Source: a virus. Taken from it: 64,000 nt of DNA. This document shows positions 43,700 through 61,275 of this stretch, piece by piece (the first letter of the stretch is position 1; each line of letters opens with the position of its first letter). Where the stretch lies: IMG/VR virus record IMGVR_UViG_3300027847_001705; one strand, given 5' to 3'. The position numbers and the translations under genes are program-made. The notes beneath the pieces were generated by a model. The model was not told the origin of the DNA. It was given only the letters and a program-made list of their open reading frames with translations, and did no database searches.

Positions 43700-43945
43700 T
43701 TATACGATGTTAAATCTAGGATCTTCAGTTATATGATCTCCCTCTGCAAGACATGATTTGACCTGATACTTATCTCTAAAGATCTCCATCTTGTTAAAAG
43801 CATCATCAAAGCTTTCTGCCGTCAGATATAAAGGTGATACATATTCCATGGTATCCCAAGTACGCATCCATACCTGATACGTCTGATTTTTAGTCATGTG
43901 CTTTATTTCTTTGGTTGCTTTTGTATTTTTGATTGTGACTGCCAT
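43700..43945 (-). CDS. Early hypothetical protein
   Basis: First ORF after an early promoter. Confidence 0.55.
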   Translation of the reverse strand: MAVTIKNTKATKEIKHMTKNQTYQVWMRTWDTMEYVSPLYLTAESFDDAFNKMEIFRDKYQVKSCLAEGDHITEDPRFNIV

Positions 43946-43983: not shown

Positions 43984-44039
43984 TTTATTCTCTATATATA
44001 TTATACCATTTATAGCGCAACATGTCAACATATTTGATT
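43984..44039 (-). promoter_or_regulatory. Early sigma70 promoter, repeat copy 2
   Basis: Perfect TTGACA-17-TATAAT. Confidence 0.9.
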
Positions 44040-44192
44040 TCTTGTAATATCAAGAGGTTACTAGTACCTTATTGAAATTATTGATAATCTTTTATCATCA
44101 ATGATTGCGACCGGTTACCTGTATCTCATTAAAATCGTTGATAATCTTTTTTGATAAATAATTGAATTGGAGAGAATATTTAATGAATTTTT

Positions 44193-45050
44193 TTGGAAAG
44201 GAACAAACTGACTAGCTTAATTATACCCGCAGATTTTGACAATGCCGTTACCCGTCTTCGTAATTTTTTTCATTCCCGTGGTTTTCTCGAAGTTCACACC
44301 CAAAACAGATTATCCATATTAGCTGCTTGCGAAGATCCTACAACTGTCGCAACATATAATTATAATGACATCATATGGCCTTTACCCCAAACCGGTCAAA
44401 TGTGGTTGGAATACGAGCTATTAAATAATCCGGATTTAAAAGGTGTATTCTGTGTTTCAACATCTTATAGACAAGAACAGAATCCTGTCGAAGGCAGACA
44501 TGAAGTTATATTTCCCATGTTTGAGTTTGAAGCACCTGGTGACTTTCAGGACTTACTTAATATGGAAAGAGATTTAATTTACCACTTAGGTTTCATACCT
44601 CCTGATCGCGTTGCCGAACCATTTCCTGAAAAAAGTTATGGTATGTGGTGTCAGGAATTTGATTGTGAAGAATTAGATCATGAGCACGAACAAATGATAT
44701 CTGATTCTCATCCTTCCGGTGTTGGATTTATAACTCAATTTCCTTATCATACTTCCCCCTTTTGGAATATGAAAAAAGTAGGTGATCTTGCTAACAAATG
44801 TGATGTAATTATGGGTGGCATGGAAACTATCGGTTCCGCTGAAAGGTCTGCTGATCCGGAAGAGATGAGAGAACAGTTTCATACAATTTCCGATGGAGAA
44901 TATGCTGAATTATTATTTAAATTATTCGGCGAAGCGCGAGTAGAAAAAGAATTGAAAGAATTCTTAAGTCATAAATTTTTTCCAAGATATGGTGGTGGAA
45001 TAGGTCTTACCAGACTTATAAGTGCCCTGAATGTAAAATTCGAATTCTGA
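44193..45050 (+). CDS. Class IIb aaRS catalytic-domain-only protein (AsnRS/AspRS paralogue, archaeal-type asparagine synthetase-like)
   Basis: Motif 1 FFHSRGFLEV, PLPQTGQ, motif 2 YRQE...RH...F.MFEFE, motif 3 GGGIGLTRL; no N-terminal OB anticodon-binding domain. Confidence 0.85.
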   Translation: MERNKLTSLIIPADFDNAVTRLRNFFHSRGFLEVHTQNRLSILAACEDPTTVATYNYNDIIWPLPQTGQMWLEYELLNNPDLKGVFCVSTSYRQEQNPVEGRHEVIFPMFEFEAPGDFQDLLNMERDLIYHLGFIPPDRVAEPFPEKSYGMWCQEFDCEELDHEHEQMISDSHPSGVGFITQFPYHTSPFWNMKKVGDLANKCDVIMGGMETIGSAERSADPEEMREQFHTISDGEYAELLFKLFGEARVEKELKEFLSHKFFPRYGGGIGLTRLISALNVKFEF

Positions 45051-45068
45051 TATAATAATACGTGATAC

Positions 45069-45178
45069 TCTGGGGTGGCGAAACAGGAAGACGCGGTACG
45101 TTGTTAGCGTATTATCTTTGGTTTGATCGTATAATCTAGATCAAAGATGTGTTGGTTCGAACCCAACCCCCAGAGCCA
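45069..45178 (+). tRNA. tRNA-Asn(GUU) with a 38-nt variable region
   Basis: Acceptor TCTGGGG/CCCCAGA, G73, encoded CCA; D arm GCG/CGC; anticodon arm GTACG-TTGTTAG-CGTAT; T arm GTTGG-TTCGAAC-CCAAC. Confidence 0.85.
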
Positions 45179-61190: not shown

Positions 61191-61275
61191 TGGTGGGGAG
61201 AGAAGGAGTCGAACCTTCACAGTCTCAGACGGCTGATTTACAGTCAGTTGGGCTCGCCACGTGCTCAGCCTCCCC
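61191..61275 (-). tRNA. tRNA-Tyr(GUA)
   Basis: GGGGAGG/TCTCCCC acceptor, A73, CCA; anticodon loop CTGTAAA; variable arm GTCT/AGAC; T arm GAAGG-TTCGACT-CCTTC. Confidence 0.93.

What the first reader, a model, noticed from the sequence alone, without database searches (positions are those of the whole stretch)
44193..45178. Inverted cassette: anticodon-domain-less AsnRS paralogue paired with an aberrant tRNA-Asn
Seen: against the general minus-strand orientation, a 285-aa class IIb synthetase core lacking the OB anticodon-binding domain ends 18 nt before a tRNA-Asn(GUU) with a giant variable arm; a GATAAATA box lies upstream. Established: archaeal-type AsnRS2 proteins make free Asn from Asp and ammonia; other core-only paralogues (GluQ, EpmA) modify tRNA or protein; SerRS ignores the anticodon and binds a long variable arm; U1-A72 is the GatCAB determinant on tRNA-Asn. 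Inference: a co-evolved orthogonal pair, where the truncated enzyme recognises the arm and charges, amidates or modifies this tRNA, giving host-independent Asn decoding or resistance to anticodon nucleases. This is the best candidate for an undescribed system in the window.
Basis: partly seen in the sequence, partly recalled or inferred. Interest (0 to 1): 0.9.

Follow-up and report, generated by a model that had tools for sequence, protein, structure and literature searches.

The report
Phage AsnRS-like enzyme with tRNA-Asn
A marine T4-like phage carries a two-gene cassette, conserved in hundreds of related phages, that joins a synthetase-like enzyme lacking its tRNA-reading domain to an odd tRNA for asparagine built on a leucine-tRNA body; it probably boosts asparagine supply for late phage protein synthesis, but no one has tested what it does.

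Summary
ORF 44193-45050 (+) is a 285-aa class IIb synthetase core with no anticodon-binding domain. After an 18-nt spacer comes a 110-nt tRNA(GUU) with a roughly 38-nt variable arm and an encoded CCA.

The pairing is not chance:
- 71 of 76 informative IMG/VR loci encoding a relative have this tRNA family just downstream.
- 47 of 50 family tRNAs have the enzyme just upstream.
- P-SSM2, P-SSM5 and P-SSM7 carry both.

The "orthogonal pair recognised through the arm" reading is not supported:
- The variable region runs from 5 to 39 nt, even among close relatives.
- One complete and one 95%-complete phage genome have the tRNA but no enzyme.
- 414 cellular species representatives (CPR bacteria, Midichloriaceae, Dependentiae) have the enzyme at 54-74% identity, and none of the chromosomal loci has this tRNA.

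The tRNA is a tRNA-Leu body remoulded to Asn identity (U1-A72, G73 and GUU are essentially invariant). Position 33 is not U in 23% of sequences, and position 37 is U in 83%.

The enzyme family has no assigned function. It is closest to AsnRS, and it recurs fused or adjacent to pyrD/pyrE/pyrF.

Best guess (0.4): an Asn-supply module made of an asparagine synthetase and a spare tRNA-Asn. Direct action on the tRNA remains open (0.3). First readers of this scan had already flagged the family on other DNA.

The parts
44153..44160 (+). GATAAATA, a T4-type late-promoter-like box about 33 nt upstream of the ORF
   Evidence: Read from the sequence. ATAAATA lies within 150 nt upstream of the gene in 50 of 85 related loci against 4.6% of control windows, mostly 14-48 nt upstream. 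Metatranscriptome contigs begin at 44178-44204. The sigma-70 scan finds nothing convincing on the + strand.
44193..45050 (+). Core-only class IIb aminoacyl-tRNA-synthetase paralogue ('X', 285 aa), AsnRS-like, with motifs 1-3 intact and no anticodon-binding domain
   Evidence: Pfam PF00152 is the only hit. All NCBIfam hits fall far below their cut-offs. The family profile matches AsnRS best in the PDB, at 2e-9. The AF2 model has pLDDT 85. Foldseek and VIA-align rank AsnRS first, Z 25-26. The motif 2 segment S-Y-R-Q-E-Q-N-P-V-E-G-R-H and motif 3 segment G-G-G-I-G-x-T-R are invariant or nearly so in 23 homologues.
45051..45068 (+). 18-nt spacer between the stop codon and the tRNA 5' end
   Evidence: In relatives this distance ranges from -22 nt (ORF and tRNA overlap) to 226 nt.
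45069..45178 (+). tRNA(GUU) with a tRNA-Leu-type body: U1-A72, G73, 3-bp D stem, and encoded CCA at 45176-45178
   Evidence: Rfam tRNA 41.5 bits. Family model R1 76.2 bits. In 53 family sequences the cloverleaf is 99.1% paired and 18 of 20 pairs show compensatory changes. Genuine tRNA-Leu genes are the next-best R1 hits, at 56-62 bits.
45113..45150 (+). Giant variable arm (38 nt between the anticodon and T stems), a 14-bp stem with a bulge
   Evidence: MFE fold. Only the nearest relatives have arms of similar size: L006 39 nt, L011 38 nt, L010 29 nt. Unrelated arm sequences in L113 and L147 also fold as long hairpins.

Best explanation
The locus is a mobile cassette found in marine T4-like phages and probably transcribed late. 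It supplies two components for making Asn-tRNA(Asn).

Part 1, enzyme X, is a catalytic-core-only offshoot of AsnRS. It belongs to a family with no assigned function. It keeps the ATP-binding and Asp/Asn-type amino-acid-binding motifs, so it forms an aminoacyl-adenylate. I infer that, like the two known core-only Asp/Asn-type paralogues (bacterial AsnA and archaeal AS-AR), it makes free asparagine from aspartate, ATP and ammonia.

Part 2 is a tRNA-Leu gene remoulded to Asn identity: the 1-72 pair changed from G-C to U-A, the discriminator from A73 to G73, and the anticodon to GUU. I infer that host enzymes charge it, either AsnRS or non-discriminating AspRS followed by GatCAB.

The two genes are co-transcribed and move as a unit, but each can work without the other. 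The long variable arm is an evolutionarily labile leftover of the tRNA-Leu body, not a recognition handle.

Shown here: the anatomy, the conservation, the linkage, the separability and the lability of the arm. Inferred: the chemistry of X, and who charges the tRNA.
For: Linkage:
- 71 of 76 informative loci have the tRNA downstream.
- 47 of 50 family tRNAs have X upstream.
- Cultured phages P-SSM2, P-SSM5 and P-SSM7 have both.
- The cassette sits in different genomic contexts.
- A seawater metatranscriptome contig bridges the ORF-tRNA junction while the flanks are silent.
- A late-promoter box is enriched about 13-fold upstream.

Separability:
- The tRNA occurs without X in a 195-kb genome rated 100% complete and a 208-kb genome rated 95% complete. 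Something other than X must therefore be able to use it.
- X occurs without the tRNA in 5 phage loci and in all chromosomal loci examined from 414 cellular species.

Asn theme:
- X is closest to AsnRS by profile and by fold.
- Its Q-T-G-Q-M-W-L-E and S-Y-R-Q-E-Q segments align with Q-S-S-Q-L-Y-L-E and S-Y-R-A-E-Q of human AsnRS.
- The model superposes end to end on archaeal asparagine synthetase A (residues 1-281 on 1-274, Z 23.4).
- GUU is present in 65 of 66 unique tRNAs, and U1-A72 and G73 in 63 of 63.

Other points:
- X is very acidic (net charge -21, pI 4.8). That is unusual for a protein that would have to hold a tRNA with its core alone.
- Both known Asp/Asn-type core-only paralogues are asparagine synthetases (own knowledge: Nakatsu 1998; Roy 2003; Blaise 2011).
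- In reduced genomes that have X, GlnA was not found in any of 5 and AsnB in only 1 of 5, while GatB was in all 5. Free Asn could serve there as the amide donor for GatCAB (own knowledge; inference).
Against: 1. About half of the X-bearing cellular genomes examined have no AsnRS: all 5 near-complete ones and about 19 of 40 others. Free Asn cannot enter translation in those genomes.
2. X is fused to dihydroorotate dehydrogenase, fused to OMP decarboxylase, or placed in an X-pyrF-pyrE-pyrD-prs operon. An asparagine synthetase does not explain this.
3. In one large phage clade a small conserved protein, with or without a C2H2 zinc finger, is encoded only between X and the tRNA. In some loci the ORF runs into the tRNA. 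Both hint at a tighter enzyme-RNA relationship.
4. If the tRNA simply decodes, the non-U33 (15 of 66) and U37 (55 of 66) states are unexpected.
5. Membership in the AS-AR and AsnA families fails by sequence.
6. I could not determine whether the hosts have AsnRS.
Confidence: 0.4

Rival explanations
1. X acts directly on tRNA(Asn). As a minimalist synthetase it charges the cassette tRNA, and in cellular carriers the ordinary tRNA-Asn, with Asn or Asp. It would do so by reading the acceptor end (U1-A72, G73). Alternatively it amidates Asp-tRNA(Asn) by AsnA-type chemistry. The zinc-finger mini-protein of some cassettes could supply RNA binding in trans.
For: - Reciprocal linkage above 90% across enzyme divergence down to 57% identity.
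- ORF-tRNA overlaps, and a cassette-specific mini-protein with a C2H2 finger.
- U1-A72 and G73 never vary while every other acceptor pair covaries.
- These marks plus GUU are exactly what the family tRNA shares with bacterial tRNA-Asn.
- X is present in genomes that lack AsnRS.
- X keeps an intact motif 2 loop and is 54-74% identical between phages and distant bacteria. That is unusually constrained.
Against: - There is no anticodon-binding domain, and the protein is strongly acidic.
- X shows no complementarity with AsnRS. At least 6 and probably about 21 of 40 X-positive genomes also have an AsnRS-like gene.
- X is rare in Patescibacteria, found in 2 of 151 sampled genomes.
- The tRNA exists without X in a complete and a 95%-complete phage genome.
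- tRNA-Gln shares U1-A72 and G73 (own knowledge), so the acceptor end alone cannot confer specificity.
- The links to pyrimidine genes remain unexplained.
Confidence: 0.3
2. X is a small-molecule ligase of pyrimidine synthesis. One possibility is an ATP-driven ring closure of N-carbamoyl-aspartate to dihydroorotate, replacing dihydroorotase. Adjacency to the tRNA would then reflect only co-transcription or co-mobility.
For: - There are three arrangement types: a DHODH-X fusion next to OMP decarboxylase (L086-88); an X-OMPdecase fusion next to a PRTase and DHODH (L089); and a Midichloriaceae operon of X, OMPdecase, PRTase, DHO_dh-like and PRPP synthetase behind an amino-acid permease.
- Bandiella and Dependentiae genomes have OMPdecase but no detectable PyrB or multifunctional-type PyrC.
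- Catalytic motifs are intact in the fused forms.
Against: - Three CPR genomes with X have no OMPdecase, PyrB or PyrC at all.
- No PyrB means no carbamoyl-aspartate source in Bandiella.
- It does not explain the 93-94% link to a tRNA carrying Asn identity marks.
- The pocket keeps residues that bind a free alpha-amino group in class IIb enzymes (own knowledge, not tested).
- The three pyr arrangements may descend from a single ancestral module.
- TIGR00856-type PyrC was not searched.
Confidence: 0.12
3. The tRNA's main role is as a spare tRNA-Asn that resists host defences. Its altered anticodon loop (non-U33, U37) and foreign body would escape anticodon nucleases or tRNA-depleting defences. 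X would be only an accompanying gene.
For: - The loop deviates at positions 33 and 37 while GUU is kept.
- Phage tRNAs with anticodon-loop changes have been proposed to evade anticodon nucleases (PMC10264068, and PMC11555353 on retrons; seen in the listing only).
- The tRNA occurs alone in some complete phages.
Against: - It does not explain why X is linked in 94% of cases.
- The window's own tRNA has the canonical U33 and A37.
- No defence system that targets tRNA-Asn is known in these hosts (not tested).
Confidence: 0.08
4. Identity-ambiguous tRNA. With a long arm and G73, host SerRS would charge it, so that Asn codons are partly read as Ser.
For: It has a class II body with G73, and G2-C71 in 23 of 53 sequences. 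SerRS reads the arm rather than the anticodon (own knowledge).
Against: - 10 of 66 family tRNAs have short variable loops.
- 1-72 is U-A rather than G-C.
- Proteome-wide Asn-to-Ser substitution should be harmful.
- It does not explain X.
Confidence: 0.03

Closest known systems
Archaeal asparagine synthetase A (AS-AR / 'AsnRS2', PDB 3P8T)
   Same: A core-only class IIb paralogue of about 290 aa. The model superposes end to end (residues 1-281 on 1-274, Z 23.4, rmsd 2.8). It arose from the Asp/Asn-RS lineage.
   Different: The sequence relation is weak: profile E 7e-4, and NCBIfam NF005055 23 bits against a cut-off of 389. X is closer to AsnRS itself. X often occurs in genomes without AsnRS, whereas AS-AR accompanies AsnRS (own knowledge, Roy 2003). 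AS-AR is not linked to a tRNA gene.
Canonical AsnRS (for example PDB 1X54, 2XTI, 8TC8)
   Same: Best hits by sequence profile and by structure. Motif 2 and the Q-x-G-Q-x-x-x-E segment resemble AsnRS.
   Different: X has no anticodon-binding OB domain or hinge. Identity is 22-25%. The asnS models score 25-28 bits against cut-offs of 343-414.
E. coli AsnA (PDB 11AS/12AS)
   Same: A class II core used for ammonia-dependent Asn synthesis, with no tRNA domain. Z 20.5.
   Different: Only 13% identity. It is a separate, older offshoot.
EpmA/GenX (PDB 3A5Y) and GluQ-RS
   Same: Synthetase cores without anticodon-binding domains that transfer an activated amino acid to a macromolecule, EF-P or Q34 of tRNA-Asp respectively. 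GenX gives Z 22.4.
   Different: EpmA models score 17-19 bits against cut-offs of 264-287. X has an Asp/Asn-type S-A-E-R segment rather than the Lys-type (inference). GluQ-RS is a class I enzyme.
Bacterial class II tRNA-Leu
   Same: The same D arm (3-bp stem, G-Y-G-A-A-A..G-G-Y-A-A-A-C-R-C layout) and the same start and end of the variable arm. Genuine tRNA-Leu genes score 56-62 bits on the family model. The P-SSM7 tRNA is 77% identical to a tRNA-Leu(CAA) of a huge phage.
   Different: 1-72 is U-A rather than G-C, 73 is G rather than A, and the anticodon is GUU. Some members have lost the arm.
Phage tRNAs with anticodon-loop mutations (van den Berg et al. 2023, PMC10264068)
   Same: A phage-borne tRNA whose anticodon loop departs from the host-type consensus.
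   Different: This tRNA is tied to a specific enzyme gene, and its whole body has been swapped. Pyrimidine-37 and non-U33 are more extreme departures.

Membership tests
Asparaginyl-tRNA synthetase (AsnRS) | Class IIb catalytic core with motifs 1-3 | tested here: met
   PF00152 at E 9e-18. The motifs are invariant in 23 homologues. Fold Z is 25-26 against AsnRS.
Asparaginyl-tRNA synthetase (AsnRS) | N-terminal OB-fold anticodon-binding domain | tested here: not met
   The 285-aa protein aligns only to the catalytic domain (residues 116-417 of 1X54). The Pfam core covers residues 18-279.
Asparaginyl-tRNA synthetase (AsnRS) | Scores above the curated asnS models | tested here: not met
   NF003037 scores 27.7 bits against 414, and TIGR00457 scores 25.1 against 342.6.
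Asparaginyl-tRNA synthetase (AsnRS) | Charges tRNA-Asn with Asn | not testable with these tools
   This needs an aminoacylation assay.
Archaeal asparagine synthetase A (AS-AR) | Core-only architecture of about 290 aa | tested here: met
   VIA-align aligns residues 1-281 to 1-274 of 3P8T, Z 23.4.
Archaeal asparagine synthetase A (AS-AR) | Sequence membership (NF005055 / NF005053) | tested here: not met
   23 bits against 389, and 18 bits against 322. The profile hit to 3P8T is E 7e-4.
Archaeal asparagine synthetase A (AS-AR) | Occurs together with AsnRS, which uses the free Asn | tested here: inconclusive
   Five of 5 near-complete X genomes lack asnS. Of 40 others, 6 have asnS above the cut-off, about 15 have a full-length match of 200-273 bits, and about 19 have none.
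Archaeal asparagine synthetase A (AS-AR) | Makes Asn from Asp, ATP and NH3 | not testable with these tools
   This needs an enzyme assay or complementation.
EpmA/GenX | Sequence membership | tested here: not met
   TIGR00462 scores 17.3 bits against 286.9, and NF006828 scores 18.9 against 264.
Bacterial tRNA-Asn | GUU anticodon, G73 and U1-A72 | tested here: met
   Present in the window's tRNA. Family counts are GUU 65 of 66, U1-A72 63 of 63 and G73 63 of 63. The role of U1-A72 for GatCAB is from PMC1635274.
Bacterial tRNA-Asn | Class I body (4-bp D stem, 4-5-nt variable loop), U33 and purine 37 | tested here: not met
   The D stem has 3 bp and the variable region is 38 nt here. In the family, position 33 is not U in 15 of 66 and position 37 is U in 55 of 66. 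The window's own copy has U33 and A37.
Class II tRNA-Leu | Leu-type D arm and long variable arm | tested here: met
   tRNA-Leu genes are the next-best hits of the family model, at 56-62 bits.
Class II tRNA-Leu | A73 discriminator and a Leu anticodon | tested here: not met
   G73 and GUU are essentially invariant.
Obligate (orthogonal) synthetase-tRNA pair | Neither partner occurs without the other | tested here: not met
   The tRNA occurs without X in genomes rated 100% and 95% complete. X occurs without the tRNA in 5 phage loci and in the CPR and Rickettsiales loci among 414 cellular species.
Obligate (orthogonal) synthetase-tRNA pair | A conserved special tRNA element, the long arm, serves as the handle | tested here: not met
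   The variable region is 5-39 nt. Enzymes that are 81-88% identical are paired with arms of 7, 20, 29, 38 and 39 nt.

The most novel reading that the evidence does not exclude
X, the cassette tRNA and, in some phages, a small zinc-finger protein form a self-contained system in which a synthetase core with no anticodon-reading domain acts directly on a tRNA-Leu-shaped tRNA carrying only the acceptor and anticodon marks of tRNA-Asn. X would either charge it or amidate Asp on it. This would give the phage a route to Asn-tRNA that does not depend on host AsnRS or on host AspRS with GatCAB. In cellular carriers the same enzyme would act on ordinary tRNA-Asn.
Probability: 0.3. Interest if true: 0.85.

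Novelty: new variant of a known kind. Interest (0 to 1): 0.68.

Why it matters
Core-only synthetase paralogues have repeatedly turned out to have unexpected functions, as with AsnA, AS-AR, EpmA, GluQ-RS and HisZ. This family is large: at least 671 clusters at 50% identity, at least 593 IMG/VR stretches and 414 prokaryotic species. NCBI names it only "amino acid--tRNA ligase-related protein". It is present in cultured Prochlorococcus phages and is transcribed in the sea, so it can be tested directly.

Its near-obligate genetic link to a tRNA whose body has been swapped from Leu to Asn identity is a natural case of tRNA remoulding. That tRNA also keeps GUU while relaxing the near-universal U33 and purine-37. 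It is therefore relevant to three questions: how tRNA identity evolves, how minimal synthetase-tRNA pairs might be engineered, and how phages tune translation or nitrogen metabolism in nutrient-poor oceans.

The independent link to pyrD, pyrE and pyrF opens a second question, about nucleotide metabolism in reduced genomes.

Tried and rejected
1. Arm as handle: rejected, because arm length is labile among near-identical enzymes.
2. X replaces AsnRS (phyletic complementarity): no pattern. X is in 2 of 151 Patescibacteria sampled, and it co-occurs with AsnRS-like genes in about half of carriers.
3. X belongs to a complete de novo pyrimidine pathway in every carrier: rejected. CPR carriers lack OMPdecase, PyrB and PyrC.
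4. Divergent family members (33-40% identity, L090-L095) and huge-phage loci (L004, L005) have no family tRNA even with filters off. Several divergent members have lost the motif 2 arginine.
5. Of the 13 pattern hits without X, 10 were not family tRNAs. They were Leu-type D arms in 115-140-nt RNAs or other tRNAs.
6. Literature: nine full-text searches found no functional description. Sullivan 2010 lists the gene only as "tRNA ligase", T4-GC 194.
7. Host AsnRS status could not be determined.
8. Arm covariation within the window's own subclade could not be assessed, because the copies are too similar.
9. No protein-protein complex job was run.
Full report
**What is there.** The window is part of a 105-kb IMG/VR virus record. 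It is AT-rich, at 33.9% GC. It encodes a T4-type DNA polymerase, a ribonucleotide reductase, and CobS- and CobT-like proteins. Its polymerase is about 49% identical to those of cyanomyophages.

Apart from three that overlap minus-strand genes or their ends, all long ORFs lie on the minus strand, except 44193-45050. That ORF, which I call X, encodes 285 aa. Its only Pfam domain is the class II Asp/Lys/Asn synthetase core. All curated NCBIfam models (AspRS, LysRS, AsnRS, archaeal asparagine synthetase A, EpmA) match only weakly and in part, at 17-35 bits against cut-offs of 264-1026.

Eighteen bases after the stop codon, Rfam finds a tRNA at 45069-45175. It scores 41.5 bits against a gathering score of 29, has anticodon GUU and carries a 35-nt insertion in the variable region. 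CCA is encoded next. ARAGORN misses the gene. The minimum-energy fold is a cloverleaf with a 14-bp bulged variable stem.

**The pairing is real and conserved.** Relatives of X at 61% identity are the "tRNA ligase" genes of Prochlorococcus phages P-SSM2, P-SSM5 and P-SSM7. Each is followed within 7-10 nt by an 85-86-nt tRNA-Asn. In the current P-SSM2 record the tRNA annotation is displaced.

IMG/VR holds at least 593 stretches that encode relatives. I built a covariance model, R1, from 53 distinct downstream tRNAs. In those sequences the cloverleaf is 99.1% paired, and 18 of 20 pairs show compensatory changes.

Forward test. Of the 80 loci fetched, 71 have a family tRNA downstream on the same strand, at distances from -22 to 226 nt. 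Four are cut too short to tell. Five have none within about 3 kb. That is 71 of 76, or 93%.

Reverse test. A pattern scan for the tRNA's D arm plus GUU gave 79 loci. Sixty of them had at least 1.1 kb upstream, and 47 of those have X immediately upstream. Of the 13 without X, only 3 are true family tRNAs by R1. That gives 47 of 50, or 94%. The 47 were accepted on the pattern match plus X, and were not each rescored with R1.

Among 50,697 deposited phage records, the tRNA family is found only in the same three cultured phages that have X.

The cassette sits in different neighbourhoods in different phages. In P-SSM7 it lies between gp23 and gp3, in P-SSM2 it lies elsewhere, and here it is inverted next to cobT. 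It therefore moves as a unit.

**Expression.** ATAAATA, the core of the T4-type late promoter, lies within 150 nt upstream of X in 50 of 85 loci, against 4.6% of control windows. Here it is GATAAATA at 44153-44160.

The stretch is present almost in full in at least 14 marine DNA runs from many studies. In four seawater metatranscriptomes, contigs cover 44178-45151 while both flanks are essentially empty. One contig, from a relative with 11 differences over 361 nt, bridges the ORF-tRNA junction. Contigs cannot prove transcript ends, but this fits co-transcription.

**What the tRNA is.** In 66 distinct family sequences, GUU is present in 65 (one is GUC). U1-A72 and G73 are present in all 63 complete copies, while every other acceptor pair covaries.

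The body is that of a bacterial tRNA-Leu. It has the same 3-bp D stem and D-loop layout. Genuine tRNA-Leu genes are the next-best hits of the family model, at 56-62 bits against no more than 45 for other tRNAs. The P-SSM7 tRNA is 77% identical to a tRNA-Leu(CAA) of a 735-kb phage. The simplest history is a phage tRNA-Leu remoulded at three places: the 1-72 pair, position 73 and the anticodon.

U1-A72 is the determinant that lets bacterial GatCAB amidate Asp-tRNA(Asn) (PMC1635274). GUU plus G73 is the identity set of AsnRS and AspRS (own knowledge).

Two features are odd for a decoding tRNA. Position 33 is C or A in 15 of 66 sequences, and position 37 is U in 55 of 66. The window's own copy is one of the few with the canonical U33 and A37.

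**The arm is not a conserved handle.** The region between the anticodon and T stems ranges from 5 to 39 nt, and ten distinct tRNAs have an ordinary 5-7-nt loop. Within the window's own subclade the arms are 7 nt (L008), 29 nt (L010), 38 nt (window, L011) and 39 nt (L006), with enzymes 82-88% identical, and L009 at 81% has 20 nt. Other giant arms (L113, L147) have unrelated sequences that also fold as hairpins. The arm expands and contracts freely while the enzyme hardly changes.

**Neither partner needs the other.** A 195-kb phage genome with terminal repeats, rated 100% complete, and a 208-kb genome rated 95% complete carry a family tRNA but no X anywhere. In the other direction, X is not confined to phages. 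A scan of one genome per prokaryotic species found 414 species with relatives at 54-74% identity. Some of these are marine MAG contigs that look like mis-binned phage. The rest are mostly Patescibacteria (CPR), plus Dependentiae, Midichloriaceae such as Candidatus Bandiella, and assorted Proteobacteria.

Several of these are complete chromosomes with housekeeping neighbours, such as Dus upstream and the DNA polymerase III gamma/tau subunit downstream. None of these chromosomal loci has the special tRNA. Only six marine MAG contigs do, and they look like mis-binned phage.

In a maximum-likelihood tree the tRNA-linked genes form two supported marine-phage clades (SH-aLRT 97 and 96), apart from the cellular group. 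NCBI names the cellular proteins "amino acid--tRNA ligase-related protein", and some are mislabelled as transposase. The family is well separated from canonical synthetases. Only 671 clusters in 1.84 billion representatives reach E 1e-3, and 170 reach 1e-30.

**What X is like.**
- A profile of 23 homologues matches AsnRS best in the PDB (Brugia 2e-9, human 2e-8). Eukaryote/archaeal-type AspRS comes next, then LysRS. The archaeal asparagine synthetase A reaches only 7e-4.
- The AlphaFold model has pLDDT 85. Foldseek ranks P. horikoshii and human AsnRS first.
- VIA-align gives AsnRS Z 25-26, yeast AspRS 23.7, archaeal AS-A 23.4 (aligned end to end), GenX 22.4 and E. coli AsnA 20.5.
- Fold alone therefore cannot choose between a tRNA-charging enzyme and a tRNA-independent one.
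- Motif 2 with its arginine, motif 3 and an S-A-E-R segment are invariant. The segments aligned with human AsnRS resemble the Asn-type rather than the Asp- or Lys-type signature. The assignment of these residues to substrate contacts rests on my own knowledge and is only a lead.
- X is strongly acidic, with net charge -21 and pI 4.8. The medians are -19 for phage copies and -11 for cellular ones.

**Clues from cellular carriers.** Five near-complete X-bearing genomes all lack asnS and glnS, and all have gatB. GlnA was not found in any of them, and only one has AsnB.

X does not replace AsnRS. It is in only 2 of 151 sampled Patescibacteria. Of 40 further carriers, 6 have asnS above the cut-off, about 15 have a full-length match of 200-273 bits, and about 19 have none.

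**An unexpected second association.** X is fused to dihydroorotate dehydrogenase in contigs that also encode OMP decarboxylase. It is fused to OMP decarboxylase next to a phosphoribosyltransferase and DHODH in another contig. In Midichloriaceae it heads an operon of X, OMPdecase, PRTase, a DHO_dh-like gene and PRPP synthetase, downstream of an amino-acid permease. The fused forms keep all catalytic motifs.

Bandiella and Dependentiae have no detectable PyrB or multifunctional-type PyrC. The CPR carriers have no pyrimidine genes at all. I cannot reconcile this association with the tRNA link. It stays unexplained.

**A third cassette component in relatives.** In the large clade that contains the window, many loci encode a 35-77-aa protein between X and the tRNA. 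It has a conserved I-P-I-Y-K-N-G-x-G-I-H module and/or a C2H2 zinc finger. The finger scores 24 bits on Pfam zf-C2H2, just under the cut-off. In the 176 sequences screened, these motifs occur nowhere else.

The window lacks this protein. In other loci the X reading frame runs 18 nt into the tRNA and stops in the D loop.

**Weighing the explanations.** The facts that any explanation must meet are these:
- Reciprocal linkage above 90%.
- Clear separability of the two genes.
- Asn identity marks on a foreign tRNA body.
- A labile variable arm.
- An AsnRS-like active site.
- Carriers both with and without AsnRS.
- The links to pyrimidine genes.

I commit, at 0.4, to an Asn-supply module. X would be a third, independent AsnRS-derived asparagine synthetase, and the tRNA an extra acceptor charged by host enzymes. 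Both would be expressed late, when an AT-rich genome is translated at full rate (Asn is 5.4% of codons here, 84% of them AAT).

In favour are the precedent of AsnA and AS-AR, the tRNA-only phages, the acidity of X and the shared Asn theme. Against are the carriers without AsnRS, the pyr fusions, the zinc-finger insert and the non-canonical anticodon loop.

Direct action of X on the tRNA (0.3) explains the tight linkage and the invariant acceptor end better. It has to overcome the missing anticodon domain and the acidity of X.

A pyrimidine-pathway ligase (0.12) explains the fusions and nothing else.

Its mechanism (arm recognition, orthogonality) is not.

**Novelty.** Nine full-text searches found no functional description. 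The gene appears only as "tRNA ligase", T4-GC 194, in a table of sporadic cyanophage genes (PMC3037559). First readers of this scan had already flagged the same family on other DNA, including the ORF-tRNA overlap and the C2H2 insert. I verified both here.

Noticed in passing
L013:3846-4076, and between the enzyme and the tRNA in L008, L009, L019-L025, L029-L037, L040, L042, L044, L059 and L152: A small conserved protein is encoded only between X and the tRNA. It has an I-P-I-Y-K-N-G-x-G-I-H..L-Q-R-Q module and/or a C2H2 zinc finger (Pfam zf-C2H2, 24 bits against a cut-off of 25.2). It is absent from the window. It could be an RNA-binding accessory of the cassette.
   Followed up: partly
L086-L088 (P0123), L089 (P0153), and L112/L127/L134/L140/L141: X is fused to dihydroorotate dehydrogenase or to OMP decarboxylase. 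In Midichloriaceae it heads an operon of X, OMPdecase, PRTase, a DHO_dh-like gene and PRPP synthetase behind an amino-acid permease. These genomes have no detectable PyrB or multifunctional-type PyrC. This unexplained link to pyrimidine metabolism deserves its own study.
   Followed up: partly
L012, L026, L046 (overlap -18 nt), L047 (-5 nt), L077 (-22 nt): The enzyme ORF runs into the 5' part of the tRNA. In the -18 cases the protein ends with C-G-V-A-K encoded by the acceptor and D stem, and the stop codon lies in the D loop. tRNA processing would therefore cut the mRNA inside its coding end.
   Followed up: partly
window 44000-44028 (- strand): A perfect sigma-70-type promoter (TTGACA, 17-nt spacer with TG, TATAAT; 12 of 12 matches) points away from the cassette towards the minus-strand gene at 43700-43945.
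   Followed up: no
window 44081-44093 and 44138-44150: The 13-mer TTGATAATCTTTT occurs twice, 57 nt apart, within a longer imperfect direct repeat just upstream of the late-promoter box. It may be a regulatory site.
   Followed up: no
window 44183-44215: An ATG with a good Shine-Dalgarno sequence (GGAGAG 9 nt upstream) opens a 10-codon frame that is one base out of register with X, across a run of seven T. The start of X (TTG at 44193) is therefore uncertain. Some homologues have an N-terminal extension resembling this short peptide.
   Followed up: partly
window 61191-61275 (- strand): This is the only other tRNA in the window, a tRNA-Tyr(GUA). It is also a class II tRNA.
   Followed up: no
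L053:3868-3963: One family member has anticodon GUC (Asp) instead of GUU. It keeps U1-A72, G73 and a 27-nt variable region.
   Followed up: no
L232:7418-7540, L233:5061-5183, L209:4119-4258, L245:4737-4858, L243:1987-2110, L200:9139-9253: tRNA-like genes of 115-140 nt have a Leu-type D arm and a large insertion after the anticodon-stem region. Their nature was not resolved.
   Followed up: no
L243:2652-2735: A second, different long-arm tRNA(GUU) carries U1-A72, G73 and a canonical U-U-G-U-U-A-A loop, but a different D arm. It lies in a 73-kb viral contig with no X nearby.
   Followed up: no
L144, L104 and about 12 other CPR loci: In Patescibacteria, X lies just downstream of a dihydrouridine synthase (Dus) gene. 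A tRNA-Gln gene lies 1-3 kb downstream, past the DNA polymerase III gamma/tau gene. This may be no more than conserved gene order.
   Followed up: partly
L001 (NC_006883.2): In the current P-SSM2 record the tRNA-Asn feature (PSSM2_199) is annotated about 2 kb away from the actual tRNA. The tRNA lies at record positions 162083-162168, right after the 'tRNA ligase' gene.
   Followed up: yes
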